Shown here piece by piece: positions 1,629 through 21,406 of a DNA stretch of 40,617 nt. The stretch covers positions 1 to 40,617 of the IMG/VR virus record IMGVR_UViG_3300005323_000022, one strand, 5' to 3'. How positions within the stretch are numbered: the first letter of the stretch is position 1; each line of letters begins with the position of its first letter. Under the pieces are notes generated by a model. That model had not been told where the DNA came from. It did no database searches and was given only the letters and a program-made list of their open reading frames with translations. The position numbers and the translations under genes were made by a program. This DNA is from a virus (taxonomy: Duplodnaviria > Caudoviricetes).

Positions 1629-1659
1629 AAAAAACCCCGTTCCAAATTTGGAACGGGGT
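1629..1659 (-). terminator. Intrinsic terminator in the leader of the scaffold/capsid genes
   Basis: ACCCCGTTCC-AAATTT-GGAACGGGGT followed by a U-run on the minus strand, just before the RBS. Confidence 0.8.
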
Positions 1660-7800: not shown

Positions 7801-8261
7801 TGTTCCCAATCCGGCATCACCTCTGCCGGCGGTGCAGTAAGCGAACGAAGATATGCCGTACCCGGATCGTCCTCGGCAAGAGGCTCCCAGCGGTACCAGG
7901 GTTTGCCTGGATTGCGAAACTCAAGGTATTTATAGGCGGTATCGATTGCGTCGCGGTCCAGCCACGGCGGCGCTTGCTCGATATCACCCGCCCGGAACGC
8001 ATTAGCATACCGCGCCACGCGCTGCGGGTTCTCCCAGTATGTCGCCTTGCCGGGAACCGTGACGCCGAAATCCTCAACCTGGTTTTGTCCAGGCGGGAGG
8101 ATGGACAGCGTACCGCCTTGTTCTGCCAGTGCTTGTGGTAATGCCGCCAGTGCCTGCTGACCAACCTTGAATTGAACAGGAAGTCCGGCAGGACCAACGG
8201 TCAAACCATTCTGTTGATTACCGGGTTTATACTCTTCGCCGGGTACAATTGGCTTCGGCAA
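1839..8261 (-). CDS. Giant putative internal virion/DNA-ejection protein (2140 aa)
   Basis: Long ORF in the late module with a Gly/Ala-rich hydrophobic stretch (GAALGGTLGLAGGPVGAVVGAG); no catalytic motif recognised. Confidence 0.6.
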   Translation of the reverse strand: MPKPIVPGEEYKPGNQQNGLTVGPAGLPVQFKVGQQALAALPQALAEQGGTLSILPPGQNQVEDFGVTVPGKATYWENPQRVARYANAFRAGDIEQAPPWLDRDAIDTAYKYLEFRNPGKPWYRWEPLAEDDPGTAYLRSLTAPPAEVMPDWEQKNAEWSLYEPPSVAPGTDATFGIQDVEWDKLPWWQKVIIPVMSSGPKFGAALGGTLGLAGGPVGAVVGAGVGTALGAAGEAAQKTPNTALSRLFTWATNAEPDQGTGFASGLLDWGAEIPERLFGMATQLGYAIADPDRYGTVGEIIKNLPQAWQAATMFYTAMPSGGPVQQIDYLKASLFGTGQEDYRQKVWNLGQPQPTYLSEEQAGAAAIAETRTRLAAIENGGSKESLEDVFQDMRNRFGFTGQRHELMAHVIFDLYNLLPLGVSQVVGDIAKASKNPLLKTAATLGRGPTETLKAYQQIIRQTPVDDLSKFEKWLGGVSTLPGGRAAPDFIAEPKPGFDLKNRRLWLNELPAASKAHETTVTFRDNANILIDQAQSVDEVQKLLHLAANGTPAEVAQVANASWLNSAEGGVFPLMMREHVPMIDDISDNFRISNNRRTMLNNMADILGVTPAKMVEDMSTVKGANDTINLLQSKLDDMAKAGDAKAADLLKSINDPAGPMTGDKMYNMASDFRKGNFPLTFDEYKYKLIDLLSEKVEKSAVDWFGVKPDRWLVRLGNTIKNAQSLVLLGLNPSYLVNNFITNIGTMAHSGALALDGAAEQAKFIARIGIEPTRFSAGIGAAEIGEKAADLGSAIRAAKRPAKADTITKLDDLFRDAASKWGLATKYSSKIESWSSKIAFYSGMRNAYHSMWKHGSGFSGMDSTTAKSLVDIGIDPDSVYRKIEGGMNWKEVEDNFTSGYKLDNLDRALTPEAKQLFSELGLYDALADKLKTANTRADIVRALDDVKKQVFDSIQKKLTANKMGRQMQAFNRVTGEGAQAGLEIWDRIWMEHIDFWNAHHDKMGHVFEVANQLTGKGRSKYLAQELARSDAEWRTQWDVFDDHVQGVVDALKESGDSAVVQNATDILINQRQNWAAFYDTRSKLYNLMSEVAYDKNLGALNELNRALDDILGDEFLPVTDVNADLYGTYHDFIKQAMNRQYRDALGIESGLQLELDTLFVDLFGRQFSNADAAAAWRAGIMNIREMMAEANIYFRTGDASGLANFGEERLALKTQIDKITGGRAVDGMGAQDRHIAYRAFTEQVVKPMQANYMQENMVNAGAMAQVPPREITTPPGPVMPYPELPGDTPLTKVPGTLLRRYMDAEGYRDPRHMINAYNKYVPGKKIARLDELTWGDMQAMTEARKTAKAEEVNLTGVVEAPKVEEVKPVINTAPEPEAVKMPLGEVEKYSPQPIDEATLEGWNTMVDPAMRDLETRLLEADMTQTGSFPDQVRAGVKRANPTLGDAEVEAMTNATLKQVRGWLGTVKPQMNEVKLASLKWGQEVRDYSLLNYNRRSNWDTWAGVVFPYQFWYTRSMLNWARRAIDRPSIFANYARLKEFQQGTVEREGFPTRLVGKIGIRLPFLPEWMGDGIFFDPYRLVFPFAQFGQLPTKMAEQNNLIYRKTVSTLQDMTADEEITAAEAQTAIDTGSGALWDKAKARAKKDIDLEVANPFDAISLLYGASLPIQYAYQLAMGRPERISQLPVTRGIQAVTGLLGIGGPAGVNLFGKVRKGMGLPEVDRFYDYRVDRMLASMTAMGEVTTDDAKRAMIYREGPAFEEAQRKVAKLGFFQYIGAPLGVDFFPEGEEDQRALRSEYDKAIEAWKNGDDEALGKFDDAFPEYEAQRLAWQSDPEAKLRMFLKSEVWDGWHNLSDLHKDQAKEQFGSIFTDSFLNKETRSYDSIDTGTYAMWARALGGDAAGVQAGQMQLQLAEKAISDKVQAYNDERDKLFPDIGEIYSLPEEDQVKYQERLDEYTQWRQNYIAKNPQIAQYVTSDLSNLYGLPQEIQAYVYQFRSERDNRYPGIFDTQDAYYNLQNSAQKKSFLKQHPELSEYWDMRTKWAADMPTAAPYILSEESLRNRIAGESSTVVYNQPSQNTATVTAQDLEGFDSALTRQLFGWAFAGQQLSQGAREELRRQWELAGEPGGSFDKYLAAVRGAVNGH

Positions 8262-9287
8262 TTACATTCTCCAGTTTATTAATCCATTGGACCAGGAAGG
8301 ACTGTATGAACTGCCGCCATAATCGTATCCGTATCCGCTTCCACCTCCGCCTCCATAAGAGCGATAGCGTACTGGATACCCATTGCCGCCTCCCGATGTT
8401 GTTGGCGTCTGTCTGCCAAGCAATGCAGTTAATTGTTCTGCCAGCCGTCCTTGCTGAAACTTGAACGTATCTGCCAGTTGCCGCCCGGTTGTATTCTGCT
8501 GTAACCAGCGTAGCGCCAAGTTTTGATAGGTATCCGGGAGCATAGAGGATGATCGGTTCGGAATACCAAGCTTGTAATAATCAAGCGTGGATTGAACCAG
8601 CGGATTGAATGTATCCGGGAGCATGCTGCCGCCGTATGCGTTGTAGAGCGCGTTCCAATACGGGTAATAGGTTTGGCTTCCGCGCCCGTACTGTTCCAGT
8701 GCAGCCTGCGCCATCGTTTTATTAAGAACGCTATTGGCAGTTATGCCTTTATCCTTGCCTTGCTCGCTGAATTTTACCGGGGACGTCTCCGTTTTTGTCT
8801 TGTCTTTGCCGCTGCCATACGCAGAAGTATCAGCCCAGTTAAAACCAGTGCTGTCCATAGCCCAACCTGGAACATTGGCATTTCCGATATTCCATCCTGG
8901 CGGCTGTGTACCCCGAAAGGGAAAACCGTTGGCATATCCATACCCCTCCGGCATACCAGGAACACTACCCACACCTAAACCAGCCTCAACGGTTTGGGCC
9001 GGATACCTTTGCTGGGTTACGGCTGATGGTCCATAGCTCACGCCAACCGGGATGACCTCGCCCTCCTGTAAGCCTGACATGTAATAACTGGCTGTCGGGC
9101 TTACGGTTGCTGCCGGGTATGGGCCATATGTACGCGTGCCGGGAATGACAGAGCCATTAATCCCGGACATAAACTCAATTCTTGGAGCAGATTGCTGCTG
9201 TTGTTTCTGTTCCACCGCTCGCAGATCGCCCATGCCGACCGACTTATTACTGCCGCCCGCGCCTGCAATTCCTAGACTATACGCCAT
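8262..9287 (-). CDS. Gly/Ser/Tyr-rich putative internal virion protein (341 aa)
   Basis: GGAGG RBS, low-complexity composition, abuts the giant ORF. Confidence 0.5.
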   Translation of the reverse strand: MAYSLGIAGAGGSNKSVGMGDLRAVEQKQQQQSAPRIEFMSGINGSVIPGTRTYGPYPAATVSPTASYYMSGLQEGEVIPVGVSYGPSAVTQQRYPAQTVEAGLGVGSVPGMPEGYGYANGFPFRGTQPPGWNIGNANVPGWAMDSTGFNWADTSAYGSGKDKTKTETSPVKFSEQGKDKGITANSVLNKTMAQAALEQYGRGSQTYYPYWNALYNAYGGSMLPDTFNPLVQSTLDYYKLGIPNRSSSMLPDTYQNLALRWLQQNTTGRQLADTFKFQQGRLAEQLTALLGRQTPTTSGGGNGYPVRYRSYGGGGGSGYGYDYGGSSYSPSWSNGLINWRM

Positions 9288-9540
9288 ACTTTACCTCCTT
9301 ATTTTGTTTCTTTCTCGCCTCCGCACTCATGCGGTCCAATTCCCGCCATTCGCGCGGGTTCATCTGCCGGCTTATCTGCTGCACTTCCGGAGGCAGCCGC
9401 TGTAATTGGTCGGTCATCATCCCGAGCATAGTATTGGCTGCCGGCGCGTAGAACTGCGCGTCAAATTCAGCTTTCCATTTTTCAAAGCGGCCCATCGCAC
9501 GCAGCCATGCCGATTCAATATTCGATAAATCCGTCATCAC
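9277..9540 (-). CDS. Hypothetical protein (87 aa)
   Basis: Overlaps the portal stop and the next start. Confidence 0.65.
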   Translation of the reverse strand: MMTDLSNIESAWLRAMGRFEKWKAEFDAQFYAPAANTMLGMMTDQLQRLPPEVQQISRQMNPREWRELDRMSAEARKKQNKEVKYGV

Positions 9541-11339
9541 ACACCGCCCATCATTTCAGGCGGCAACCCTTCCGGCGACATCTGGCCTTGTCCCATACCC
9601 GGAATCATTCCAGCCATTTGCGGGGGTAACCCGCCCATACCAGGATTCATTCCCTGGCCTTCAGCACCTACTGCTGTCGGCATTGCTCCACCTTGTACTC
9701 CGCCCTGCTGCGCCGTCATCTGCTGCAACATTTCGGGCGGTATCTGCTGTCCACCTTGTGGCTGTCCCTGTTGCTGTTGCTGCTGCTGTGCCTGCATCTG
9801 CATCGCCTGTTGCTGCATCCGCTGCGCCAAATACTGCTGTGATAACATCTCAAACGCCAGCTCAGCCAAGATATCCTCATCCATCTGACCGGACTGTCCG
9901 ATGTTGAGGATATTTTCCCGCGCCCACGCTTTGGTCGTGATCGGGTTGTCTTTGCGCGTCAGCATCCCGGTGATATTGGCCATCTGGAGTTTATCCTGCG
10001 GGAGATCGACGTCCAGCTTCACATCAATCTGCAAAAACTCCGGCACATCTTTGGGCTTGATCCCCAGGCTCTTCGACTGCTGCCCGCTGTTGCGATACCA
10101 TAGCAATGCCTTTTCCATCACGTCTGCAATCGCTTCCGAGCATAACTTCTGCGTCTCGATCAGCGGAAGCCTGCCGGACTGTGAGAGCAGCGAGACCGTG
10201 GAGAAAGCAGCGTTACCGGAAAGCGGCTCGCCCATCGCTTGTTTGTAGATCGTGCTCTCGGTCGCTTTTTGGTCGGCAATCTGCAAAGCCTGCCCGAACG
10301 ATGGGTCGATAATACCTTTTGTCGCCATTGGCTCCAGTTTCTCACCGTATTTAAGGGTAATCTGTCCCCCGGGTGTGGATGTATCCATCGCCACATCCTG
10401 CGGGTCAGGATCGCCTGGCGCACCGGTGTGGATGAATGTCGGGTTGATGCCGATATTGAACACGTTGGTATACAGCGTGGTGTAGACCAGGTTCTGCCGC
10501 TTCCACAGCCCGGACTTCTTCAGCGTGTACAATAGCGGCTGCCGCTGCTGCTCGGGTTTTTCGAACAACATCGAGCCGCCCGTCAGAGTGACGCTCACAG
10601 GAATAAACGGAAGCTCGTGCGGCATTGCTATGATCGGCTGATCCTCGACCCACACGGCATAATTGACATCGTCATACCACATGCCAAGCTCAACCTCATC
10701 GGTGGGGGTACGCCCTGCCACGAATGCCTCAACCGCCTCGCCAAACCGCGCCGCCAACTCGTATACCCGCACATCAACCTTGCGATAGTATCCGCGCAAC
10801 CCGGCCACGTCGAACTCCGGGTAACCCTGCTTTGGGTTCCAGATATTGAACAGGTACGGCGTCATCTGCGCCAGCCGCTCAAGCCTAGCCGCGTTGCCTT
10901 TTTGTTTTTTAGCCGCCTCCAGCATATCGGCTGTTGAGGTGATCGCCACATGTACCTCGCCATACAGTAATGCGCTGCTTACCATGTCGTAGTGTGGAGG
11001 CATCCGTGACGCGCGCCCCGCCTGTATCCACAAACGCTTTGCCGCAAGCTCGATATCGTCTGAATTATCAATGCGCTTACCGCCGTCATCGGCAGGCACA
11101 GAAAAAATAGGATCGGTTGCCACCAGTAAACGCCTTGCTCCTAGCAGCGCATTGCGCGCATCCGGGCTGATCGTCTCCATCAAGCCGTCAACGGTGGGTT
11201 TGTCATCCCAGTCCATCAAATACATTTTTTCGTACGCCTCGAACACGGTATTTCTTTCGGCGTACATCTGCTCCAGGTCGTCAGCGCGCGCTTTGACCTC
11301 CGAAAAAATTGCATCATCGATTTTAGTTTTTGCCATCAA
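9537..11339 (-). CDS. Portal protein (600 aa) with Q/G/M/P-rich C-terminal tail
   Basis: Size, position after terminase, portal-like ALLYGEVHV segment, low-complexity tail typical of podovirus-type portals. Confidence 0.75.
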   Translation of the reverse strand: MMAKTKIDDAIFSEVKARADDLEQMYAERNTVFEAYEKMYLMDWDDKPTVDGLMETISPDARNALLGARRLLVATDPIFSVPADDGGKRIDNSDDIELAAKRLWIQAGRASRMPPHYDMVSSALLYGEVHVAITSTADMLEAAKKQKGNAARLERLAQMTPYLFNIWNPKQGYPEFDVAGLRGYYRKVDVRVYELAARFGEAVEAFVAGRTPTDEVELGMWYDDVNYAVWVEDQPIIAMPHELPFIPVSVTLTGGSMLFEKPEQQRQPLLYTLKKSGLWKRQNLVYTTLYTNVFNIGINPTFIHTGAPGDPDPQDVAMDTSTPGGQITLKYGEKLEPMATKGIIDPSFGQALQIADQKATESTIYKQAMGEPLSGNAAFSTVSLLSQSGRLPLIETQKLCSEAIADVMEKALLWYRNSGQQSKSLGIKPKDVPEFLQIDVKLDVDLPQDKLQMANITGMLTRKDNPITTKAWARENILNIGQSGQMDEDILAELAFEMLSQQYLAQRMQQQAMQMQAQQQQQQQGQPQGGQQIPPEMLQQMTAQQGGVQGGAMPTAVGAEGQGMNPGMGGLPPQMAGMIPGMGQGQMSPEGLPPEMMGGV

Positions 11340-11362
11340 TAATCGCCTCCATAAGGCGAGGG

Positions 11363-11428
11363 TTAACGCAGGTCAGGTACAATCTTGACCTCATACTCGA
11401 TCCCACCGATACGTATCTTGTCTATCAC
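11363..11428 (-). pseudogene. 21-codon remnant resembling the N-terminus of small phage HExxH metallopeptidase-like proteins
   Basis: GAGGAGG RBS, GTG start, IDKIRIGGIEYEVKIVPDLR then stop. Confidence 0.4.
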
Positions 11429-11438
11429 CAACGCCTCC

Positions 11439-12089
11439 TCATACCACGCCGGCACGCGCCAGGCGCACCATCGGGTGTTCTGTTTTTGTTGCTTTCTTGG
11501 GGGGCTCGCGATGGCGTTCGCCGAAGTACACCGCCAATGCAACCGATAGCACCAGGTCGTCATGATCGCCATCCCGCCATGCTTCGTATGTATCGTTAGC
11601 CGCCTTAGTGATTTTTAGCTTGAAGTTTTGGAACTCGCGTTTGATTGTCTCGCTCTCTGGCAACTTCGCGAACCGTAGCCTACCATGCCCAAGTACTACC
11701 TGAACCGTACTCACGAGTAATCGTTTTGGGATATACCAAAATCCGGTATCTGCATCAAACTTCTCGACCAACCCCCCTGTAATGACTACGGGGATTATGT
11801 GAACCTTCGAACCGCGCAGTAGGTCTACTACTGGCCGGCCTACACCAGTAGCATCCACCACCAGGCGGCAGTCTCGCAATTGCGGTGTCTCTACCGTTTT
11901 GATTACGCGATTTGCCATGTCTGGATAACTCATTCCGAGTGGGTATCGCTCGACATGCCTGATACGGTGAATTAGGTCGTACGCCAACTCACCGGACGTG
12001 TCAAATCCGGTCTGCTCCATCGTCAGGTCATCCGCCGCGAGTGCGGTATAGTCTGCCGCCTGACCAATGTCCAGCCCCAGGTAGATCAT
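11439..12089 (-). CDS. terL: Terminase large subunit, nuclease domain (separate gene)
   Basis: RNase H-like motifs LGLDIGQAADYTAL, VVDATGVG, HDDLVLSVALA. Confidence 0.85.
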   Translation of the reverse strand: MIYLGLDIGQAADYTALAADDLTMEQTGFDTSGELAYDLIHRIRHVERYPLGMSYPDMANRVIKTVETPQLRDCRLVVDATGVGRPVVDLLRGSKVHIIPVVITGGLVEKFDADTGFWYIPKRLLVSTVQVVLGHGRLRFAKLPESETIKREFQNFKLKITKAANDTYEAWRDGDHDDLVLSVALAVYFGERHREPPKKATKTEHPMVRLARAGVV

Positions 12090-12931
12090 AGTCTTAAAGG
12101 CTCCACGTCCTCATCCTGCTCAGATGGGACAAACAGTTTATCGATCTCATGCCCAAACGCCCTGTCGAGGTCGTCCGTGCTAAACACGTTGTCAATTGGA
12201 TCCACAAACTTGCACATGTACTCTTGCGAAAACCACAGTTCCCCCAGGCTGCGCCGCTCTTCCGCGAGAAACTCCGGTGCGATACGGTCTATCCGCATAG
12301 CCGGCACTTCAATACGCTGCCAGACATCTCCGCCATTTTCCCATTCTTCATAAAAGTGTCCCCTTTTGCCAAACGGTGTGCTCATCAGGATCATAGCTCC
12401 GCCGCTCACCGCCAGCATAGGCCGGATGGAGTAGTACAGCACGTCATCTACCCGGCTCGCCTCGTCCTCGATGATGAGATCGACCGATGAGTAACCGCGT
12501 ATCGTGCTCTCGCTGGATGGCAGGCTGATGATCCTCGCGCCATTAGCCAGTTGGCACGACAACTGGTTGTCCTCGGTGAGCTTTGGCCGCACCGGGAGCA
12601 GCGTCAACCACTCGCGCACCTTACGAAACAACTCCCCCGACTGTCGCAGTGATGGGGAAATCAGCAACGTCAGCCCCGGCTTGTATATCGCGCGGTACAC
12701 GGCCAACAACGAGGATACCGTTGACTTACCCGCTTGCCGTGAGCAGTTGAGCAGCATCCGGCGGCCGCCTTTGCGCAAAACTGACGCCTGCCACGCATCA
12801 GCCGCAAACCCAAGACCCGCCGCCCATGTCACTGGGTCAGGCGGTTGGAGCAGCCCGCGCCGGATACCCTCGTCACGCAGTGCTATCGCTCGCGCTCTCT
12901 GTGCCGCTGTCAAGCATCGCTCTAAGCTCAC
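12086..12931 (-). CDS. terL: Terminase large subunit, ATPase domain (separate gene)
   Basis: Walker A SRQAGKST, Walker B LIIEDEA, coupling motif STP, and FSQEYMCKF. Confidence 0.9.
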   Translation of the reverse strand: MSLERCLTAAQRARAIALRDEGIRRGLLQPPDPVTWAAGLGFAADAWQASVLRKGGRRMLLNCSRQAGKSTVSSLLAVYRAIYKPGLTLLISPSLRQSGELFRKVREWLTLLPVRPKLTEDNQLSCQLANGARIISLPSSESTIRGYSSVDLIIEDEASRVDDVLYYSIRPMLAVSGGAMILMSTPFGKRGHFYEEWENGGDVWQRIEVPAMRIDRIAPEFLAEERRSLGELWFSQEYMCKFVDPIDNVFSTDDLDRAFGHEIDKLFVPSEQDEDVEPLRL

Positions 12932-13388
12932 TCAGTAGCTCCTCGTCTGATATCGTCTGCACCTGCACTGGCTGACCGTCACGCCCGGTTAGCTCCGACC
13001 GCTGAACCGCTTTACCAAGCTCGCCCTCAATCAATTCCGTGGACGCTGCCTGCCTAATCCTTTCGTCTTTACTTTCCAGTCCGGCTATCTTAACCGCCAT
13101 CGCTTTGGGTAGCGTCTTGCGCCGCATCGTGAGCGCGAGTACCGCGCCATCATACGCGGCCAGTTCCAACGCCCGGTCAAGCTGCTTCTTTTCAGGCCAG
13201 CGCACCGGCGTCTTTTCGTCCATGCCGATCATCCGCGCCGCCTCTGCATCTGACTTCGCGTCCAGCCGTGCCACCAAAAAACGGAGCTGGTTTGTGGTCA
13301 AACCGTTGAGAATGTCCTGGTACTCAGTGTCCAGTTTTGGGTCAGAAAGGTGCAAGTTTGGTGCGTTTCGGTTCAAAATTGTCCTCAT
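12873..13388 (-). CDS. Putative terminase small subunit (start uncertain)
   Basis: HTH-like SDAEAARMIG, C-terminal ELTGRDGQPVQ motif, lies upstream of terL. Confidence 0.65.
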   Translation of the reverse strand: MRTILNRNAPNLHLSDPKLDTEYQDILNGLTTNQLRFLVARLDAKSDAEAARMIGMDEKTPVRWPEKKQLDRALELAAYDGAVLALTMRRKTLPKAMAVKIAGLESKDERIRQAASTELIEGELGKAVQRSELTGRDGQPVQVQTISDEELLSELRAMLDSGTESASDSTA

Positions 13389-13551
13389 TTGGTGTCGCCG
13401 TGAATACCAGCGGTATCCCATCGCGTTTGCACTCCGCCAGCATCGCCATCTGCGGGATCGCCGTCTCAGGCAGGTCGAGCGTTAGCCTGATCCCGCCATC
13501 GACCAAAGTTTGTAGTTTGTAAACCGCCGCCTGAAACTTAATCTCTGCCAC
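13342..13551 (-). CDS. Hypothetical protein (69 aa), first gene of the late operon
   Basis: GGGAGG/GAGG RBS with GTG start after the leader terminator. Confidence 0.6.
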   Translation of the reverse strand: MAEIKFQAAVYKLQTLVDGGIRLTLDLPETAIPQMAMLAECKRDGIPLVFTATPNEDNFEPKRTKLAPF

Positions 13552-13577
13552 GCCTCAGATCCTCCCACTGGCCAAAC

Positions 13578-13608
13578 AAAAAAACGGGCCAGCAATTCGC
13601 TGACCCGT
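13578..13608 (-). terminator. Intrinsic terminator/attenuator in the late leader
   Basis: ACGGGTCAGC-GAATT-GCTGGCCCGT followed by a U-run on the minus strand. Confidence 0.8.
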
Positions 13609-13686
13609 CGGTTACCTGTCGGTCAAAAATTTTATCCGAAGAGAAAAAACTGTTACATCGTGGCCCGGTTTTTACCTGTCGGCCAC
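13601..13686 (-). promoter_or_regulatory. Twin leader hairpins (putative antiterminator elements)
   Basis: CCGACAGGTAA repeated 60 nt apart inside stems TGGCC/GGCCA and TGACC/GGTCA; the second overlaps the terminator 5' arm. Confidence 0.6.
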
Positions 13687-13692
13687 AAGATC

Positions 13693-13720
13693 ATTATACA
13701 CGATCTTAGATCATTTTCAA
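13693..13720 (-). promoter_or_regulatory. Leftward sigma70-type late promoter
   Basis: TTGAAA-16 nt-TATAAT on the minus strand. Confidence 0.65.
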
Positions 13721-13758
13721 CCGATAGAACACAATAGAACATAAGATTAGAGTTTTAT

Positions 13759-13805
13759 TATAAGCAAAATTGCCTATTGACAATATAAGCAAAATTGCGT
13801 ATTAT
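13759..13805 (+). promoter_or_regulatory. Rightward promoter with tandem operator-like repeats
   Basis: TTGACA(13777)-17 nt-TATTAT; TATAAGCAAAATTGC at 13759 and 13784. Confidence 0.75.
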
Positions 13806-13849
13806 ATACATAACGAACAAAAAATCAGTCACAAAAAAAGAGAGAGGAA

Positions 13850-14134
13850 ATGAACACAATTTTTGTTTTGAAAAACGGAACCGTTGAGACCACCGACAGC
13901 GTGGAGTATTGGAACCAGGTCCGCCAAGACGCGCAGGACTACCAGAATGAACTGACCGCCAACGGCGAGTTCGACCGGGAAGCCGCCGAGAGCTACATCA
14001 ACGGCCAGTGGCGGCAGGAAGCCACCGCCTTCAACTACAAAACCGGCGAGTCCGAACAGGCCAACATCCCGGATGATCTCTGGACCGGGTACGTCAACGA
14101 CCTGCTCAACCAGATCGAGAAAAATCTGCAATAA
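13850..14134 (+). CDS. Small acidic hypothetical protein (94 aa)
   Basis: GAGAGG RBS; about 17 D/E versus 6 K/R. Confidence 0.8.
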   Translation: MNTIFVLKNGTVETTDSVEYWNQVRQDAQDYQNELTANGEFDREAAESYINGQWRQEATAFNYKTGESEQANIPDDLWTGYVNDLLNQIEKNLQ

Positions 14135-14159
14135 ATATCCCGCCGGGCTAACCACCCGG

Positions 14160-14209
14160 CCTGGTCTCCCGGTGCGAGTCCGGGACCGATGAGCAGAAGC
14201 GAAACCAGG
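14160..14209 (+). ncRNA. Type III hammerhead ribozyme-like RNA with variant core
   Basis: CCUGGU-C^-UCCCGG[UGCGAGU]CCGGGA-CCGAUGA-GC[AGAA]GC-GAA-ACCAGG; all three stems pair; core is CCGAUGA instead of CUGAUGA. Confidence 0.7.
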
Positions 14210-14225
14210 AGGAGGAACACAAAAA

Positions 14226-14474
14226 ATGTCACGCAACAAAAATGAAAATTTTACTCAGTTTTTACACGAGTTTACCGACGCCAACGGCGTCACCCGCTGG
14301 GCAGTCGCCCGCTGGAACCCGGACTCCGGACAGTACACCTGCCCGATGGATGCCCGCGAACGCGCGATCACCGGATGCTCGGCTTTCTTCGCCAAGACGC
14401 CTGCCGGGATCGGCGGATACACTGATCGACGAAAGGCACTTCGCCGCGCCCGCTACCTGTTCGGTGAGCGATAA
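14226..14474 (+). CDS. Hypothetical protein (82 aa)
   Basis: GGAGGAGG RBS overlapping the ribozyme 3' end. Confidence 0.8.
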   Translation: MSRNKNENFTQFLHEFTDANGVTRWAVARWNPDSGQYTCPMDARERAITGCSAFFAKTPAGIGGYTDRRKALRRARYLFGER

Positions 14475-14476
14475 CC

Positions 14477-15034
14477 ATGTATAAAGTCAACGTCAAAATC
14501 GTCGGGGTATCCCCACTGCTCATGAATCGATTTTCAGAAACGCCTCGCATGCGTAGGAAAGCTGGAGAAATTCCACATGATTGGCGTGAAACGGCTTATT
14601 TCATGCCAGGGTCGACAACCGAGCTTGCACAACCCGGTATTCATATCGAAGCAGCAATGGCAAAAGCCGCTTCGCAGTTCAGGGTAGCAGGTCGAGGCCG
14701 CAGCACATACCGGGATATGGTACGAGCTTTCGTTCTAGTGGAACCTGACATGATCCCACACCACATCAGCCTGCCAGAAAAAGGAGGCCTCACCACGGAC
14801 TCCACGCACCCTGTTTACCTCGATATGCGTCCTGTCGTCATCCAGCGTGCCAGGATCATGAAAACCAGAGTCGCATTGTCTACTGGCTGGAGCCTGGTTT
14901 TCACCATCAATGTCTTGGATGACCAGATACCCGCAGAAATTTTACATGATATTCTACTTACAGCTGGAAACGCTTTTGGCATCGGCGATTTCCGCCCGCG
15001 TTTTGGACGCTTTTCCGTGGAAGAATTCAAGTGA
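14477..15034 (+). CDS. Stand-alone Cas7/RAMP-like protein (185 aa)
   Basis: N-terminal strand VKIVGVSPLLM, GWSLVFTI strand and C-terminal glycine loop AGNAFGIGDFRPRFGRF; no other cas genes in the genome. Confidence 0.7.
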   Translation: MYKVNVKIVGVSPLLMNRFSETPRMRRKAGEIPHDWRETAYFMPGSTTELAQPGIHIEAAMAKAASQFRVAGRGRSTYRDMVRAFVLVEPDMIPHHISLPEKGGLTTDSTHPVYLDMRPVVIQRARIMKTRVALSTGWSLVFTINVLDDQIPAEILHDILLTAGNAFGIGDFRPRFGRFSVEEFK

Positions 15035-15037
15035 TTT

Positions 15038-15055
15038 ATGATAAAATTTTATCAT
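15038..15055. repeat. Perfect 18-bp palindrome preceding the pentamer array
   Basis: ATGATAAAATTTTATCAT. Confidence 0.85.
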
Positions 15056-15056
15056 T

Positions 15057-15106
15057 GGTAAGGTGCGGCACGGCATGGTCTGGTTAGGCAAGCTGTGGTA
15101 AGGCCT
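15057..15106 (+). ncRNA. GGY-NN pentamer array (putative guide RNA)
   Basis: GGT-AA GGT-GC GGC-AC GGC-AT GGT-CT GGT-TA GGC-AA GCT-GT GGT-AA GGC-CT: 9 of 10 units begin with GGY. Confidence 0.75.
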
Positions 15107-15107
15107 A

Positions 15108-15129
15108 AAAGCCCCCATCCGGGGGCTTT
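15108..15129. terminator. Hairpin terminator between the convergent RAMP operon and integrase
   Basis: AAAGCCCCC-ATCC-GGGGGCTTT. Confidence 0.75.
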
Positions 15130-16012
15130 ATAATTTCCAGTTATCCACCGGCGAGGCGCGGCGGTGGGCATCCATGATATCGATCTGCGCCAGCTCGATA
15201 TATCGGTTGACCATCTCCATTGTCTCATGGCCGAGGATTTTTTTGAGTGTGAACGGGTCGCCGCCATTGCGAAGATACTCGATTGCAAAGGTGTGCCGGA
15301 ACACATGCGGCGTGTAAGCCGGGACACCGGCCCGCCTGCACAACCTGGCGATCATCTTTGCCACAGAAAACCGGTCCGTCGGATTGCCCGCCGAATTGGT
15401 CAAGAGCCGCGCTTTTGGTACATCGAGTTTGTTGTAACGAAGGATCGCCTGCGCCGTTTTGGGCGAGAATGGGACGATCCGCTCCTTTGCCCCCTTCCCG
15501 AAGATATGAATCGCCTGCTCCCGAATGTCAACATCCTTGCAGCATATCTCGCACAACTCTGTCACGCGCATCCCGGTATCCAACAGCAGCAGGATGATCA
15601 GGTAGTTTTTTTGCGCGCCAGGTAGGCTGCGCTGCATGCTGCCGCGCGCTGACCGGCGATAGATCGCGCTTTTGTTTATCGCAGCCAGCATCAGCCGCAC
15701 ATGCGCAAACGGTATGGGCTGGATCACGCGCTTCTCCGGGCGCGGGCGCGGTATCTCCGGCATGGGATTATGATCGACCAGCCCCTCCCCCACCGCCCAG
15801 CGGAACATGGCGCACAGCCCGGTATGGTAATTGAGCCGCGTCTTGTTACCCACCTGGAGACCGGCCAGAAACTCCCGGATATCGGTTTTTGTGACGGCTC
15901 GCAAATCTCGCGCTCCAAAGCGCTTCAGCGTGACGGAATAATCGGAAATCGTATGAGACGACAGGCCGCGCGCCCTGCAGGCCAGTAAAAAAGAATCAAT
16001 CCATGTGTACAT
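15128..16012 (-). CDS. int: Tyrosine integrase (XerC/D-like)
   Basis: TGMRVTEL, GKGAKER, HVFRH, LGH and catalytic Y; AGGAG RBS. Confidence 0.95.
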   Translation of the reverse strand: MYTWIDSFLLACRARGLSSHTISDYSVTLKRFGARDLRAVTKTDIREFLAGLQVGNKTRLNYHTGLCAMFRWAVGEGLVDHNPMPEIPRPRPEKRVIQPIPFAHVRLMLAAINKSAIYRRSARGSMQRSLPGAQKNYLIILLLLDTGMRVTELCEICCKDVDIREQAIHIFGKGAKERIVPFSPKTAQAILRYNKLDVPKARLLTNSAGNPTDRFSVAKMIARLCRRAGVPAYTPHVFRHTFAIEYLRNGGDPFTLKKILGHETMEMVNRYIELAQIDIMDAHRRASPVDNWKL

Positions 16013-16085
16013 TGATAGCTCCTGTTTCGGATTTTTGCTATCAATGACATCACGGATTGACCGCTATCGATACCGTGTGTGTTTT

Positions 16086-16134
16086 GTGGGCGCGAGAGGG
16101 CTCGAACCTCCGAACCTCACGGATGTGAACCGTG
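16086..16134 (-). mobile_element. attP core: 3' half of tRNA-Val(CAC)
   Basis: Minus strand CACGG-TTCACAT-CCGTG anticodon arm, GGAGG-TTCGAGC-CCTCT T arm, CGCGCCC-A acceptor strand; 5' half absent; next to integrase. Confidence 0.85.
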
Positions 16135-16213
16135 CCTTGAAAAACGGTCATTGGGACACACACTTGTGGTCGATTTCGTTATCCGTGTTGTACATGATAG
16201 GCCTTTCCGTGTG

Positions 16214-16567
16214 TCAGTTAAGCGCCTTCCTCCATCCCGCGGCCTTCGCCTCTGCCTCGGTACAAAACCAGCGCTCGCCGTATTCAGGCGAGATTTTGGT
16301 CTGCGAGTAGTACGACTGCCCGGGCACGTGGTAAATTTTCTCTCCGCCGTCAACACTGATATTCCCTTTGATATCACAGCCCAGCTCGTGGGTCTTGCAG
16401 CCGTCCGGGCAATTGTCGGCACTGAAATCAACCGGGATGGTATTGATCCTCTCCGGCGCGCGGGTCGGTATCCTGGTGGCCAGCGGTCTGACTGTCGGCG
16501 TTGACGTTGTTTCCCCGCAGCTCATCAGGACCAGGGACACTACAAATACAACGATTAACTTTCTCAT
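16214..16567 (-). CDS. Lipoprotein with IKGN..YHVP..ERWFC.E.EA..AGWR ('sunset'/nuclease-associated) domain
   Basis: Signal peptide ending LMSC and the conserved C-terminal motif. Confidence 0.75.
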
Positions 16568-16983
16568 GTTCCACCCCTCATGTTAACTTCGTTTATCCTT
16601 TTTGATGCCGCAATCAGCAATCCTATCAAAGCTATCATCCCGGCCCCGGTAATACTCAGCGCCGCGTATATCAAAGTAGCCCACCATTTTTGACCAAGAA
16701 CCCTTGAGAACCACAAATTCAACCCGGTCGCGCAGATTCTCGCGACAATCTTTGTGCCCGACAGCGCAACATTAAGTGATTGCTCTAAAACTGGGTATGC
16801 CGGATCAATCACGGCCGTAGATGTAAAATAAAACGCCAGTCCCCAAAAGAATAGCAGCATAACAACGTAGATTATTATGAATTTTTTTCTTGCTTTTCTT
16901 ATCCTGTCAAGCTGGTTTCCACAGTATCGGCAAATAATTGCATCATCCTGGATCTCTTCGGAACAAAACGGACACCTTTTCAA
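16564..16983 (-). CDS. Zinc-ribbon membrane protein
   Basis: [18 protein letters not shown] followed by several hydrophobic segments. Confidence 0.8.
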
Positions 16984-16993
16984 TCAGCCTCCA

Positions 16994-17287
16994 TCAATCA
17001 GGCAAACTTTTCCCAACAGCAAATAGAACTATTAGCATTGCAACTTGAGCCGCCAACAATATCAAGAACCATGTTATCGAGAACCTGAGAATGGCCGCCT
17101 CTCCAAATAAACCAATAATTATTCCGACCACCGAAATCCCCAATAATATTCCGACTACCCACCGCGCCGCCGCAACTATCATCACAATTGAAAGTAATAT
17201 CGTGCTTGGTTCCTGGCTCTTCCTACAGTGCGGACAAATCCTGGCCTCATCCTGGATTTCCTCAGCGCAATAGGGACACTTTTTCAT
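16994..17287 (-). CDS. Zinc-ribbon membrane protein
   Basis: CPYCAEEIQDEARICPHC followed by hydrophobic segments; GGAGG RBS. Confidence 0.8.
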   Translation of the reverse strand: MKKCPYCAEEIQDEARICPHCRKSQEPSTILLSIVMIVAAARWVVGILLGISVVGIIIGLFGEAAILRFSITWFLILLAAQVAMLIVLFAVGKSLPD

Positions 17288-17298
17288 GGGACCCCTCC

Positions 17299-17336
17299 AA
17301 TTGCCTATTGAATTAATAGAACATAAATACTATAAT
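17299..17336 (+). promoter_or_regulatory. Rightward promoter facing the repressor gene
   Basis: TTGAAT(17308)-17 nt-TATAAT(17331), preceded by the shared AATTGCCTA element. Confidence 0.7.
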
Positions 17337-17368
17337 AAATTACACTGTTCACCGATAAAGGGGATACG

Positions 17369-17452
17369 ATGATTTTCAACGATAAAAAGCTAAAAGGTTT
17401 TTCCATTTGTATTTTCGGTGTCAAGATTGAATTTCTGATCTGGCTTAAGTAA
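17369..17452 (+). CDS. 27-aa peptide MIFNDKKLKGFSICIFGVKIEFLIWLK
   Basis: AAGGGG RBS, own promoter, stop abuts the repressor stop. Confidence 0.5.
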   Translation: MIFNDKKLKGFSICIFGVKIEFLIWLK

Positions 17453-17785
17453 TTATTTGCCACCTAACATAACAACTTGAATATAACGCAATAAACGCTC
17501 TTTGTCCTCATCGGTCAATTGACCTACCAAGTGCATGAGTTGATCCTGGTATTCTTTATTCACCCCAACCTTTTGCAAAAACCCAACCGCCCTAAATGTT
17601 TCCTCGGGCGATACATTCAATGCCACCGCAATCCGGTTGAGCGAATATTCACTCAATCCTCGTTGTCCTGACATAGCACGCGATATCTGGCTGGTAGATA
17701 CGCCACTTCTTTTGGCCAGGTCTACCTGCTGCCATCCCTTTTCGTCCAATTTTTTCTGAAGCCATTCCGAAAAATTATTGTTCAT
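17453..17785 (-). CDS. CI-like XRE helix-turn-helix repressor (110 aa)
   Basis: WQQVDLAKRSGVSTSQISRAMSG; divergent from the cro-like gene; no S24 peptidase domain. Confidence 0.85.
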   Translation of the reverse strand: MNNNFSEWLQKKLDEKGWQQVDLAKRSGVSTSQISRAMSGQRGLSEYSLNRIAVALNVSPEETFRAVGFLQKVGVNKEYQDQLMHLVGQLTDEDKERLLRYIQVVMLGGK

Positions 17786-17793
17786 AAGTCAAC

Positions 17794-17910
17794 ATTATAT
17801 TAACCGATTGGCAATTGCCATTGGGAAAACGATAATTGCCTATTGACAGATACATTATTTAATTGTATAATTGCCTAAAGGCAATTAGAAATTTATCTTA
17901 TGGCAATTAG
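17794..17910. promoter_or_regulatory. Genetic switch: divergent promoters and operators
   Basis: TTGACA(17843)-17 nt-TATAAT(17866); leftward TATAAT 8 nt before the repressor ATG; inverted repeat TAATTGCCT-AA-AGGCAATTA (17868-17887) and further AATTGCC/GGCAATT half-sites. Confidence 0.85.
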
Positions 17911-17919
17911 GAGCATTTT

Positions 17920-18150
17920 ATGCCAAAAGAATTTACCCAAGCAAATATCAATCTAACTAAGGATGACGCCAACATGGTCGATCATATGATGCGACTAGAT
18001 GGTTATGTCGTGCGCTCTGCCTTTGTGCGTAAGCTCATCCGCCAGGAATGGGCGCGCCGCCATCCCACTAACGAAGATGCAACTCCCAGTCCGACCACCG
18101 AAGAATTAACCAATCTTGTTGCAAAGATCATGCCAACCAGCGAATTGTAA
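17920..18150 (+). CDS. Cro-position regulator, ribbon-helix-helix-like
   Basis: ANINLTKDD...RSAFVRKLIRQE pattern; first gene after the rightward promoter; AGGAG RBS. Confidence 0.6.
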   Translation: MPKEFTQANINLTKDDANMVDHMMRLDGYVVRSAFVRKLIRQEWARRHPTNEDATPSPTTEELTNLVAKIMPTSEL

Positions 18151-18630
18151 GCGGGGTGTCCCCCTCACCCTGTTGACAAGATTATCGGTAAAAGCCTCGC
18201 CGATGCGGTTCCTTCCCTCGTAGACGGCGACCCGGCGGCAACCGGGAACCTTAACAATCAAAAAGTGCAGTCCTGGCGGTGTCTCAAACTATCGGTGGTA
18301 TGAGCGCAAGAATCCGAGCCGCCAGTTGCAGCCAGCCGATGCGTCTGATTGGCATCGCTCCCGACCGTCAAGTGATCGGTGAGAACCCGAAGTGGTAAGT
18401 GGGCAGTATGGCCTAGCCCCAGGCGAAAGCAGACCACATGTACTGAGTTAAGACAAGGCCAGGGGAAAGTCGAAATGGGAGTCGGCGCAAGACGGGGCGT
18501 TCATGCTGGCAAAACGAGTCACCTGCTTTAGTGGTGAGCGCCAGTGGCTCCGCTGGAAACCATGTGGTGCATGGTGACGGCCATCAACAAGGTGGCAACG
18601 GGCGGCGGCCAAATGCCGCCGCCCAAAATC
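18151..18630 (+). ncRNA. Putative structured non-coding RNA/leader
   Basis: No credible ORF; many complementary segments; boxA-like ACCTTAACAA at 18248. Confidence 0.45.
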
Positions 18631-18645
18631 AGAAAGGAGCAGAAC

Positions 18646-18741
18646 ATGATCTCAATCGAAATCGCAGTTGTGGCAATCGTATCTTATGCCTTCGGGGTGA
18701 TGTTCGCAAACCTCGTGGCGTATCTAAGGAGCGGAAAATGA
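18646..18741 (+). CDS. Small membrane protein (31 aa)
   Basis: AAAGGAG RBS; MISIEIAVVAIVSYAFGVMFANLVAYLRSGK. Confidence 0.6.
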   Translation: MISIEIAVVAIVSYAFGVMFANLVAYLRSGK

Positions 18742-19079
18742 CTGCCCTGGGCATCGGCGTTACCGACCGCGATCCAGAAACAGCCCATGACTGGCAACCA
18801 GGCCGCCGTGACTATAAGCCGGATTACCTGCGCAAGGCCATCGCTGAGTACAACGAGGCTGCTGCCGCGCTTAGCGAAGCCGCCGACCGGCACGAGCAGG
18901 GCGATCCAAACCACTCCGAAGTCACGCGTGCCGCTGTCCAGCGCTGCCTGCACATGATGAACGTCAGGCGCTGCAAGATGGAACTGGCCTGGCTGCGGTT
19001 TGAAACCGAACAGTCCGCCCGCACCGCCGACTGGCAGGACGAACAGACGATGTACTCGGACCTGCGCCGCGGCGGATAA
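18738..19079 (+). CDS. Hypothetical protein (113 aa)
   Basis: AAGGAG RBS, ATGA overlap with the preceding gene. Confidence 0.7.
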   Translation: MTALGIGVTDRDPETAHDWQPGRRDYKPDYLRKAIAEYNEAAAALSEAADRHEQGDPNHSEVTRAAVQRCLHMMNVRRCKMELAWLRFETEQSARTADWQDEQTMYSDLRRGG

Positions 19080-19097
19080 CCAAAAATCAGAAAGGAG

Positions 19098-20303
19098 ATG
19101 AAAATGGATACGTCTTTAGCGAATCATCACGAAACCGGCATGACCCGGGTGAAAAATTACATGCTTTCACCCGAGGTAAAAGAGCGCTTCTCGGAAATGA
19201 TGGGCGCGAACGGAATTTATTACCTCAATCAGGTCCTTATCCTGGTGGCGAACTCAAACGACCTACAACAGTGCGATCCAAAATCAATCCTGATCTCGGC
19301 CATGCGCGCTGCCAGCCTCAAACTCTCCGTCGATCCCGCCCAGGGCCAGGCATGGATTATCCCTTACAAGGGCAAGGCGACTTTCCAACTGGGCTATCGT
19401 GGCGTTTATGAACTGGCGCAGCGCACCAATCTCTACCGGTTCATCAACGTCATCGGCGTTTATGAGGGCGAGGAACTGATCGAAAACCGCATGACCGGGA
19501 ATCACACCTTCGGCGGGCAGCGGATCAGCGACAAAGTCATCGCCTACATGCTGTACTTCCAGCTCGTCAATGGCTTCGAAAAAACTTTTGTGATGACGGT
19601 CAAGGAAATCGACGAACACGCCAGGCGCTATTCCGCAGCTTATCATATGCCGAAGTCAAAATGGAACGATCCATACGAGCGTCCGAAGATGGAGAAAAAG
19701 ACCGTCCTGATGAACGGCCTGCGCAAATGGGGTCGTTTCAATGCCGCCGATCTGGACACCATCGAACAGATCGAGAGCGATCAGGGTTGGATCGATCGAT
19801 CGCTCCCTGAAGTAAATGAGGTCAGCAATCCCGAGCCCGAACCAACCCATTCTGCGGCGCAGAACCTTTCTGATTTGGGTTATGACGGAGAAACTGCTGA
19901 AACAGAAACTCCAGATTTGCCTGAAGAACCGGAGTTTAAAACCGAACAACTCTTGGTAGAACCGCTCCGCTATGATCCTGAAACCCTGCGCCAACGGATT
20001 GCCGACATTGCATCGAAATCGCCAAAAGCAAAGGTCACCGCAGAACAGCGCGGCCTGGTCTGCGTCTGCCTAGAGCAGGCGCTAACGGGCAGAGACCCAA
20101 AAGCCAACCGCAAGATGCTTCTGCATTGGTTGACGGGAAAATCCAGCATGACCGAGATTGATGATCCGACCGCTGTTGCACTCTATCGCTGGCTTGAACC
20201 CTCGAAGGACAGCGGCGGCGCATGGATGGCATCGCCAATGGCGGCGAGAGAGGCAGCGGCAGCTTTCGTTGCCGCACAGCCGGAGCAAGAAGGATTGTTG
20301 TAA
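19098..20303 (+). CDS. recT: RecT-family single-strand annealing protein with C-terminal extension
   Basis: LQQCDPKSI, GQAWIIPY, FQLGYRG, MEKKTVL motifs. Confidence 0.88.
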   Translation: MKMDTSLANHHETGMTRVKNYMLSPEVKERFSEMMGANGIYYLNQVLILVANSNDLQQCDPKSILISAMRAASLKLSVDPAQGQAWIIPYKGKATFQLGYRGVYELAQRTNLYRFINVIGVYEGEELIENRMTGNHTFGGQRISDKVIAYMLYFQLVNGFEKTFVMTVKEIDEHARRYSAAYHMPKSKWNDPYERPKMEKKTVLMNGLRKWGRFNAADLDTIEQIESDQGWIDRSLPEVNEVSNPEPEPTHSAAQNLSDLGYDGETAETETPDLPEEPEFKTEQLLVEPLRYDPETLRQRIADIASKSPKAKVTAEQRGLVCVCLEQALTGRDPKANRKMLLHWLTGKSSMTEIDDPTAVALYRWLEPSKDSGGAWMASPMAAREAAAAFVAAQPEQEGLL

Positions 20304-20322
20304 AACGGGAGGAGAGGCAAAA

Positions 20323-20691
20323 ATGATTAGCCAACTCTTGGATCAACTGGCTGAATACCAGGCGCAGAAGGATGCAATCAGCCTGAAGAAACAAGACTTA
20401 ATTGATAGCATCCTGACCGCAGAAATCAAGGCGAAACTCACAGAAATTGAAGCCGAGTTTTCCATCCAATCGGAAGGTGTGGATACGAACATCTCCGAGC
20501 TTACCAATAAGATTAAAACCGAAGTCATCGCTCACGGCGAAAGCGTGAAGGGAACTTATCTGCACGCCGTCTATGCCAAAGGGCGTGTTTCTTGGAACAC
20601 CGAAAAGTTGGACGGTCTCATGCTCGCATTTCCGCAGCTCAAAGAAGCCCGTAAAGAGGGCGAGCCTTCGGTTTCAATTCGAAAAATTTAA
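20323..20691 (+). CDS. Coiled-coil hypothetical protein (122 aa; possibly Gp157/Gam-like)
   Basis: GGAGGAG RBS; helical N-terminus; follows recT. Confidence 0.6.
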   Translation: MISQLLDQLAEYQAQKDAISLKKQDLIDSILTAEIKAKLTEIEAEFSIQSEGVDTNISELTNKIKTEVIAHGESVKGTYLHAVYAKGRVSWNTEKLDGLMLAFPQLKEARKEGEPSVSIRKI

Positions 20692-20813
20692 CCAGGAAAC
20701 GCTCCCTGCGTGCGGTCTACGGATCGCCCCCAGGGAGTGGTTACCCCTGGAATCTCCTTTCTAACGCCGGGCGGTACAAAGATTAGTGCCGCCCGGCAAG
20801 GAGCGCAAAACAA

Positions 20814-21215: not shown

Positions 21216-21406
21216 AAGATTTTTACCTCAATGACATTGTGATTACGCCTTTCGGGGTCGGCATCGTGCAGGGCACGCTCACCAAAGACGGCAAAGTCAA
21301 GATATTGGTCTCGCATGAGGGAAGCCTGGATGACAAACGGCAGCCGGCGGTTTTGCATGCCCATCCCCCGGAGCTGCTTACCAGGTTGGTCAGGAGTAGC
21401 GAATGA
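21212..21406 (+). CDS. Hypothetical protein (64 aa)
   Basis: GGAGG RBS and overlaps with both neighbours. Confidence 0.6.
   Translation: MKDFYLNDIVITPFGVGIVQGTLTKDGKVKILVSHEGSLDDKRQPAVLHAHPPELLTRLVRSSE

What the first reader, a model, noticed from the sequence alone, without database searches (positions are those of the whole stretch)
14142..14215. Variant hammerhead ribozyme inside the RAMP operon, overlapping an RBS
Seen: complete type III hammerhead topology with a GUC cleavage triplet (cut after 14166), 6-bp stem I with a UG-start loop, 2-bp stem II and GAAA. The core is CCGAUGA (U4C). Stem III overlaps the GGAGGAGG RBS of the next gene, and another hairpin (14142-14160) precedes it. Inference: self-cleavage separates the first ORF from the 82-aa/RAMP/array transcript and may tune its translation or stability.
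Basis: partly seen in the sequence, partly recalled or inferred. Interest (0 to 1): 0.75.

Follow-up and report, generated by a model that had tools for sequence, protein, structure and literature searches.

The report
Phage gene-junction hammerhead with C4 core
A temperate phage carries a small hammerhead RNA motif, with one non-standard core letter that many phage relatives share, that likely cuts its early messenger RNA between two genes; such motifs between phage genes have been known since 2011, and this one is likely not part of the RNA-guided VIPR module further downstream.

Summary
14160-14209 (+) is a complete type III hammerhead (GUC, predicted cut after 14166, 6-bp stem I, 2-bp stem II, core CCGAUGA), the only one in the window, and 0 of 300 shuffles give one as strict. 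Rfam misses it. It belongs to a family of small phage hammerheads: 86 of 87 other distinct viral matches pair stem I fully although pairing was not imposed. With the core left free, six core positions are invariant (77/77) while position 4 is U (57) or C (20), so C4 is a recurrent, tolerated letter. The downstream RAMP is a VIPR module (Vipr plus a GGY/NN guide), but the ribozyme is not tied to it: 0 of 80 Vipr loci carry this family, and a related phage has the U4 twin between unrelated genes with no Vipr. Most likely it is a gene-junction ribozyme that splits a phage early mRNA, as described in 2011. Cleavage is untested, U4C is reported to lower activity, and folding gives no support for cleavage unlocking the RBS. 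The scan noted a C4 phage hammerhead before on other DNA (e1-8185478). Modest interest.

The parts
13777..13805 (+). Predicted strong sigma-70-type promoter of the early operon (TTGACA-17-TATTAT), overlapped by a repeated 20-nt operator-like sequence (13759-13778, 13784-13803)
   Evidence: 11 of 12 consensus matches; repeat family D7
13850..14134 (+). 94-aa ORF of no known family, first gene of the operon; stop codon 32 nt before the predicted cut
14142..14160 (+). Hairpin abutting stem III; would cap the 3' end of the upstream cleavage product
   Evidence: pair probability about 0.9; a hairpin of 6 bp or more in this place in 48 of 87 family members against 298 of 1740 control positions (the window itself scored 5 bp there)
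14160..14209 (+). Type III hammerhead motif, U4C core variant; predicted cut between 14166 and 14167
14207..14215 (+). Shine-Dalgarno AGGAGGAGG of the 82-aa gene; the first three bases lie in stem III
   Evidence: sequence
14226..14474 (+). 82-aa phage protein of unknown function (conserved C-terminal ALRRARYLFG); not a regular Vipr partner
   Evidence: 63 homologues besides itself; no Vipr in 76 other loci of this gene, many of them short
14477..15034 (+). Vipr-type RAMP protein, 185 aa (context, not part of the ribozyme)
   Evidence: Cas7/Csm3-like fold, best Foldseek E 4.9e-7; 63 of 80 homologue loci have GGY/NN arrays
15057..15131 (+). Single predicted VIPR guide: 10 pentamers, 9 with GGY (15057-15106), then a G+C hairpin tail facing the convergent integrase gene (context)

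Best explanation
The element is a type III hammerhead motif of a widespread small phage family, and it likely self-cleaves after C14166, probably more slowly than the U4 form, splitting the phage's predicted early mRNA at the junction between the 94-aa and 82-aa genes. Shown: the fold, its covariation, the conserved core, its place at gene junctions and its independence from Vipr. Inferred: one transcript from the promoter at 13777-13805; folding as stem III is completed; a cut that leaves the upstream piece ending in a hairpin plus a cyclic phosphate and the downstream piece starting with a 5'-hydroxyl directly on the 6-bp stem I hairpin, about 40 nt before the RBS. Both ends would resist nucleases, so the downstream 82-aa/Vipr/guide RNA would get a standard protected leader whatever gene lies upstream, much as the engineered RiboJ insulator does. 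The hairpin-ribozyme-RBS unit would thus serve as a reusable joint in an operon whose cargo genes are swapped; the VIPR module is one such cargo.
For: Fold beyond chance. 86 of 87 other distinct viral matches pair stem I 6/6 without pairing imposed, whereas 16 of 25 matches to the same pattern in cellular genomes do not look like the family and mostly do not pair. Covariation score 0.49 against 0.11 shuffled, 0 of 500; 5 of 6 stem I pairs and 4 of 6 stem III pairs change on both sides. With core positions free, G5, A6, A9, G12, A13, A14 are invariant in 77 of 77 distinct contexts and position 4 is only U (57) or C (20). Five stem I types occur with both U4 and C4. Loop 1 is a U...U heptaloop and loop 2 ends in A, the tertiary motif of natural fast hammerheads (PMC2632901 abstract); the loop 2 A was not imposed and is at least 90% conserved. 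An RBS plus ORF follows within 60 nt in 54 of 87 members against 4 of 87 on the opposite strand. Related phage G001 has the U4 twin, with a compensatory stem I change, as the first gene junction of the equivalent operon but between unrelated genes. Homologues of the 82-aa gene in another phage lineage have a canonical type III hammerhead at the same distance from the ATG (L133, L147), with up to three per operon. Such clustered prophage hammerheads cleave in vitro and in E. coli (PMC3088659).
Against: No cleavage or expression data. U4C is reported to decrease activity considerably in vitro (PMC3088659), and an Aedes cCgauga construct was made in that study while Aedes examples appear among its inactive RNAs (I could not confirm it is the same one). 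Stem II shows no covariation. 5 of 77 members carry G8A, so weakened or dead copies exist in the family. In the longer native context the predicted probability of stem III falls to 0.27 (14100-14215) or 0.05 (14100-14260). Only 2 of 76 other loci of the 82-aa gene have a hammerhead directly upstream, and both are one lineage. A test for promoters upstream of family members showed no enrichment (18 of 53, against 23, 23 and 11 in control positions), so 'early operon' rests on the window, G001 and L133/L135 only. Nuclease protection by such ends is recalled knowledge and depends on the unknown host.
Confidence: 0.55

Rival explanations
1. Ribosome-controlled switch: the ribozyme folds and cuts only while the 94-aa ORF is being translated, and an initiating ribosome on the 82-aa RBS blocks it; the slow C4 core widens the time window for this competition.
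For: Predicted stem III probability rises from 0.27 to 0.99 when 14100-14148 is masked as by a ribosome, and falls to 0 when 14206-14240 is masked. A ribosome footprint starting at -20 reaches stem III in 32 of 66 members.
Against: Secondary-structure prediction only, without tertiary contacts. C4 members are not closer to their RBS than U4 members (5 of 13 against 27 of 53 reach stem III). RBS opening energy in the window does not fall after the cut (3.4 to 3.8 kcal/mol); family mean 5.7 to 5.3, with 19 of 66 gaining and 6 losing more than 1 kcal/mol.
Confidence: 0.15
2. C4 has largely killed catalysis and the motif persists as a structured spacer carrying the RBS.
For: U4C lowers activity in vitro; Rfam score far below threshold; the nearest relative has U4; about two thirds of the C4 contexts are one gut-phage clade (13 of 20 share stem I TTACGG).
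Against: None of the 20 C4 contexts has a second change at G5, A6, G8, A9 or G12-A14; C4 occurs with 9 different fully paired stem I sequences; the window's stem III (6 bp) is longer than that of its U4 twin (3 bp); a viroid U4C ribozyme keeps enough activity in vivo (PMC3088659).
Confidence: 0.13
3. The cut destabilises the downstream piece (as glmS cleavage does) and so limits or delays 82-aa/Vipr/guide expression; C4 sets how much escapes.
For: glmS cleavage is followed by degradation (PMC6765202 passage). Host nucleases are unknown.
Against: The downstream product would begin with a paired base in a hairpin predicted at 0.96, which is a protective end by established knowledge (recalled). 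RiboJ raises transcript about twofold and protein two- to tenfold in E. coli (PMC6206723 abstract).
Confidence: 0.12
4. It is a VIPR guide-processing ribozyme like the published hammerhead-interspersed vrRNA arrays.
For: Hammerhead-interspersed arrays are described for VIPR types I and V (10.64898/2026.04.26.720920); 3 of 80 Vipr loci here have hammerheads, and L338 has one 326 nt upstream of vipr with a short ORF between.
Against: Those three are type II hammerheads, lying just after vipr among the guides. Here the cut is 890 nt and two ORFs upstream of the only guide, and no GGY/NN tract flanks it. The family model finds 0 of 80 Vipr loci (best E 0.11, the type II in L338).
Confidence: 0.05

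Closest known systems
Intergenic, often clustered hammerheads of prophages and phages (Perreault et al. 2011, PMC3088659)
   Same: Hammerhead between single genes or short gene blocks of variable identity in a phage transcript; stem II of 2 bp; proposed processing of polycistronic RNA
   Different: Fixed small architecture (6-bp stem I, U-N5-U loop, GC/GC stem II) with C4 in 20 of 77 distinct contexts. That paper's consensus excluded core changes unless activity was shown. Its Dataset S1 could not be read for this family.
Type III hammerhead, Rfam RF00008 (Hammerhead_3)
   Same: Topology, GUC site, C3, G5, A6, G8, A9, G12-A15.1, U16.1, loop 1/loop 2 motif
   Different: U4C; no RF00008 hit for the window; U4 members of the family score 25.9-35.6 bits against a gathering score of 48.5
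Natural U4C viroid hammerhead (Ambros and Flores 1998, known to me only through PMC3088659)
   Same: Same core change, reported to be slower in vitro but sufficient in vivo
   Different: Here a DNA-phage mRNA element, and the change recurs across many stem I types
VIPR ribozyme-vrRNA arrays (10.64898/2026.04.26.720920, Fig. S19 legend)
   Same: A hammerhead and a Vipr/GGY-NN guide on one predicted transcript
   Different: The hammerhead is not between or next to guides; it lies two genes upstream and is a type III of a family absent from 80 Vipr loci
RiboJ synthetic insulator (PMC6206723)
   Same: Self-cleaving ribozyme placed just upstream of an RBS, removing upstream sequence
   Different: Engineered; the analogy for function is inferred, not tested

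Membership tests
Type III hammerhead ribozyme | Three stems around the core, stem III open-ended, stems I and II closed by loops | tested here: met
Type III hammerhead ribozyme | Core C3, G5, A6, G8, A9, G12, A13, A14, A15.1, U16.1, H17 | tested here: met
   sequence; consensus as given in PMC3088659
Type III hammerhead ribozyme | U at position 4 | tested here: not met
   C14187; so filed as a core variant, not a consensus member
Type III hammerhead ribozyme | Covariation of stems I and III | tested here: met
Type III hammerhead ribozyme | Covariation of stem II | tested here: inconclusive
   one pair imposed by the pattern, the other C-G in 72 of 74
Type III hammerhead ribozyme | Loop 1 (5' U, 3' U heptaloop) / loop 2 (3' A) tertiary motif | tested here: met
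   sequence motif present: UGCGAGU and AGAA; the contact itself is not shown
Type III hammerhead ribozyme | Rfam RF00008 gathering score | tested here: not met
   no RF00008 hit at E up to 10
Type III hammerhead ribozyme | Site-specific self-cleavage in Mg2+ | not testable with these tools
   needs an in vitro assay
VIPR ribozyme-vrRNA array | Hammerhead between or adjacent to vrRNA segments | tested here: not met
   nearest GGY/NN tract is 890 nt downstream
VIPR system (downstream module) | Stand-alone RAMP-fold protein without CRISPR array | tested here: met
   no CRISPR-like repeat family among the 20 largest shown for 8000-24000
VIPR system (downstream module) | Adjacent tract of GGY/NN pentamers (4 or more) with a structured tail | tested here: met
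   9 of 10 GGY at 15057-15106, hairpin 15108-15131
VIPR system (downstream module) | Conserved vap accessory gene | tested here: not met
   82-aa profile finds 0 of 80 Vipr loci; P0003 and P0066 each sit on a 2476-bp contig, possibly the same one (unverified)
VIPR system (downstream module) | DNA target by the 1-nt skip rule | tested here: inconclusive
   no exact match in viral contigs; best self match 14 of 20

The most novel reading that the evidence does not exclude
Position 4 is a natural rate dial: phages flip U4 and C4 to set how fast the gene-junction ribozyme cuts, and here the slow C4 form lets ribosome traffic on the first early gene decide when the Vipr/guide transcript is released and stabilised, timing an RNA-guided anti-phage weapon.
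Probability: 0.1. Interest if true: 0.7.

Novelty: new variant of a known kind. Interest (0 to 1): 0.33.

Why it matters
Why phages place self-cleaving ribozymes between small genes is still described as unresolved (PMC6765202 passages). This family is compact (50 nt), missed by Rfam thresholds, and offers natural U4/C4 pairs in related phages (window against G001; L231 against L210), which is a ready comparison for linking cleavage rate to downstream expression. It also shows that consensus searches that demand CUGANGA lose about a quarter of this family. The concept itself is known since 2011.

Tried and rejected
RNA evidence: no RNA holder listed, so no reads were laid. Single-protein locus searches for the 82-aa protein and Vipr in viral contigs found nothing; alignments did. 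blastn of 14130-14230 against annotated phages: no match. C4 compensated by loop type: it looked linked by raw count (loop 1 second base G in 16 of 20 C4 against 5 of 57 U4) but vanished when collapsed to stem I types (4 C/6 U with G, 5 C/13 U with A): rejected. Stop-codon recoding as the reason for missing ORFs behind C4 members: not supported; the large clade has a 4-codon mini-ORF and the real gene further on. Promoter enrichment upstream of family members: none. RBS release by cleavage: no gain at this locus. A switch by pairing of the upstream hairpin arms (CCCGG/CCGGG) with stem I is possible on paper here but other members lack the complementarity (read): set aside. Guide target: no exact match in viral contigs, no self target. 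82-aa protein: no Pfam or PHROG hit below E 0.001; Atlas hits all under 0.9. Whether the family is in Perreault's Dataset S1: cannot tell, as that file is held cut and even CUGAUGA gives no hit in it.

Full report
Observation. Stem III 14160-14165 / 14204-14209, C17 at 14166, stem I 14167-14172 / 14180-14185 with loop UGCGAGU, core CCGAUGA at 14186-14192, a 2-bp stem II with loop AGAA, then GAAA. A descriptor allowing U or C at position 4 finds only this site on either strand; 300 dinucleotide shuffles of the window gave 0 hits at the same strictness and 0.02 per window at loose settings. The fold is the MFE of the isolated motif but is no more stable than shuffles (z about -0.5). Rfam does not call it. 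The RBS overlap is partial: stem III ends at 14209, and the better spaced AGGAGG is 14210-14215.

Setting. The window is a 40.6-kb virus record with integrase, repressor, RecT, replication initiator, DnaB, terminase and endolysin genes, so a temperate phage; the host was not determined. Between the terminase genes and the integrase lies a rightward unit: an 11/12 sigma-70-type promoter, a 94-aa ORF, the hairpin and hammerhead, an 82-aa ORF, a 185-aa ORF, and ten pentamers of which nine start with GGY, followed by a hairpin. The 185-aa model (pLDDT 90.9) matches Cas7/Csm3 RAMPs (best E 4.9e-7), and 63 of the 80 best homologue loci (of 365 found) carry GGY/NN arrays. This is a VIPR module as defined in bioRxiv 10.64898/2026.04.26.720920 (read: parts 1, 2, 3 and 6 of 6 plus passages; figures and supplements not seen, and Fig. 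S19 could bear on the comparison).

A family. A first pattern for the C4 core found many matches with the same upstream architecture. A second pattern fixed only the triplet, the two loop-end Us, the core outside position 4, the first stem II pair, GAAAC and the spacing. Of the 87 others, 86 pair stem I at 6 of 6 positions, G-U allowed. The same pattern in cellular genomes gave 25 matches, of which 9 look like the family (8 with 6/6, one with 5/6; mostly Clostridia-type genomes) and 16 do not, which shows what chance matches look like. On the 74 distinct rows, unpaired L208 included, 94.7% of cells pair against 74.1% shuffled and the covariation score is 0.49 against 0.11 (0 of 500); slid controls reach at most 43% and 0.125. 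Five of 6 stem I pairs and 4 of 6 stem III pairs change on both sides; stem II does not covary. Related sequences inflate such shuffle tests, but up to four pair types at single positions are hard to get by descent alone.

Is C4 decay? A third pattern left positions 4-9 and 12-14 free (104 loci, 106 matches, 77 distinct contexts). G5, A6, A9, G12, A13 and A14 are invariant in 77 of 77; position 7 varies as expected; G8 is A in 5; position 4 is U in 57 and C in 20, never a purine. No C4 context has a second core change. C4 occurs with 9 stem I types, 5 of which also occur with U4, which points to repeated switching, though 13 of the 20 C4 contexts are one clade. Against activity: PMC3088659 says U4C considerably decreases activity in vitro while staying sufficient in vivo for a viroid (the original paper was not held), and it made an Aedes cCgauga construct while listing Aedes examples as inactive (identity unconfirmed). 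The G8A members show that weak copies exist. I put in vivo cleavage at about 0.75.

What it is tied to. Not Vipr: the family model finds 0 of 80 Vipr loci; three of them have type II hammerheads among the guides, the published arrangement; 0 of 120 family loci have a GGY array or Vipr in the flanks held (1.5 kb each side for up to 80, 0.3 kb for the rest); 0 of 5 whole records searched have Vipr (4 are incomplete). One Vipr locus, L338, does have a type II hammerhead 326 nt upstream with a short ORF between. Not strictly the 82-aa gene either: among 76 other loci of it, many short or redundant, 2 have a canonical type III hammerhead at the same spot (L133, L147) and 7 have one somewhere nearby at E below 1e-4, 6 of them one lineage; many copies sit directly behind a promoter-like sequence instead. 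What is constant is the junction: an RBS and ORF within 60 nt downstream in 54 of 87 (4 of 87 on the opposite strand), an abutting hairpin in 48 of 87 (17% in controls), an upstream same-strand stop within 150 nt in 76 of 87 (no control), and RBS overlap with stem III in 20 of 87. The clearest case is G001, a related phage (several replication-region and lysis proteins 40-88% identical): at the equivalent place it has a first ORF, hairpin, the U4 twin of this ribozyme with a compensatory stem I pair, and a second ORF, neither matching the window's, and no Vipr. G003 and G004 carry three and two copies.

Mechanism. Most likely the ribozyme cuts the early transcript at the first gene junction (inferred). 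The upstream piece would end in a hairpin and cyclic phosphate; the downstream piece would start with a 5'-hydroxyl on the stem I hairpin (pair probability 0.96). That such ends resist nucleases is recalled knowledge and host-dependent; RiboJ, the engineered analogue, raises downstream transcript and protein in E. coli (PMC6206723, abstract only). Folding does not support the idea that the cut frees the RBS here (3.4 before, 3.8 kcal/mol after; family mean 5.7 to 5.3). It does predict that upstream coding sequence competes with stem III and that ribosomes could tip the balance (0.27 to 0.99 with the upstream ORF masked, 0 with the RBS masked); this is the main rival and the basis of the novel case.

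Known and new. Hammerheads flanking short gene blocks of variable identity in prophages, 2-bp stems II, activity in vitro and in E. coli, and the mRNA-processing proposal are all in PMC3088659 (read: parts 2 and 3 of 8, section 17, passages, supplement file 7, supplement searches). The loop motif is in PMC2632901 (abstract). The open question of function is in PMC6765202 (passages). PMC5737381 and 10.64898/2026.04.26.720927 (passages) added nothing on this motif. In seven literature searches only PMC3088659 was listed with the term U4C together with hammerhead, and I saw no description of a phage family with frequent C4; the library lacks most subscription papers and Dataset S1 was unreadable, so prior inclusion is not excluded. 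Two earlier notes of this scan reached similar verdicts on other genomes; they were read after my analysis and are not evidence.

Verdict. Real hammerhead variant, U4C not met as consensus, works like a type III hammerhead; a gene-junction element of phage operons that happens to precede a VIPR module. New variant of a known kind; interest 0.33.

Noticed in passing
window 14477-15131 (+): VIPR module: Vipr RAMP plus a single 10-unit GGY/NN guide and hairpin tail; no target found by exact 1-nt-skip search.
   Followed up: partly
window 16080-16135 (-): 3' half of a tRNA (anticodon loop reads CAC, Val; T arm and acceptor end) beside the integrase, likely the attP core; read from the sequence, not called by ARAGORN.
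   Followed up: no
window 13759-13803 and 17825-17887: Repeated operator-like sequence overlapping the early promoter and recurring near the repressor; similar palindromes overlap promoter-like sites upstream of many 82-aa homologues.
   Followed up: no
window 11439-12931 (-): Terminase large subunit appears split into a 281-aa and a 216-aa ORF; G001 has matches to both in the same order.
   Followed up: no
window 1627-1703 (-): Weak match to Rfam anti-hemB (29.4 bits, gathering 49.5), mainly hairpins and a terminator.
   Followed up: no
window 22949-23110: Low-complexity tandem repeats inside the replication initiator gene, possibly the origin.
   Followed up: no
L198, L204, L205, L223, L253 just downstream of the ribozyme: In the large gut-phage C4 clade a strong RBS leads to a conserved 4-codon mini-ORF and a small hairpin before the real gene's RBS, like a natural bicistronic leader.
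   Followed up: partly
L231 against L210: Same downstream gene, different upstream half: L231 has C4 and a mismatched stem III, suggesting recombination within the ribozyme.
   Followed up: no
L458, L463, L481, L487, L493: G8A core variants with C3 retained, 5 of 77.
   Followed up: no
L337, L338, L351: Type II hammerheads among VIPR guides; L338 has a second one 326 nt upstream of vipr.
   Followed up: partly
L213:657-716: Twister-P1-like ribozyme (50.6 bits, below gathering) about 800 nt upstream of a family hammerhead.
   Followed up: no
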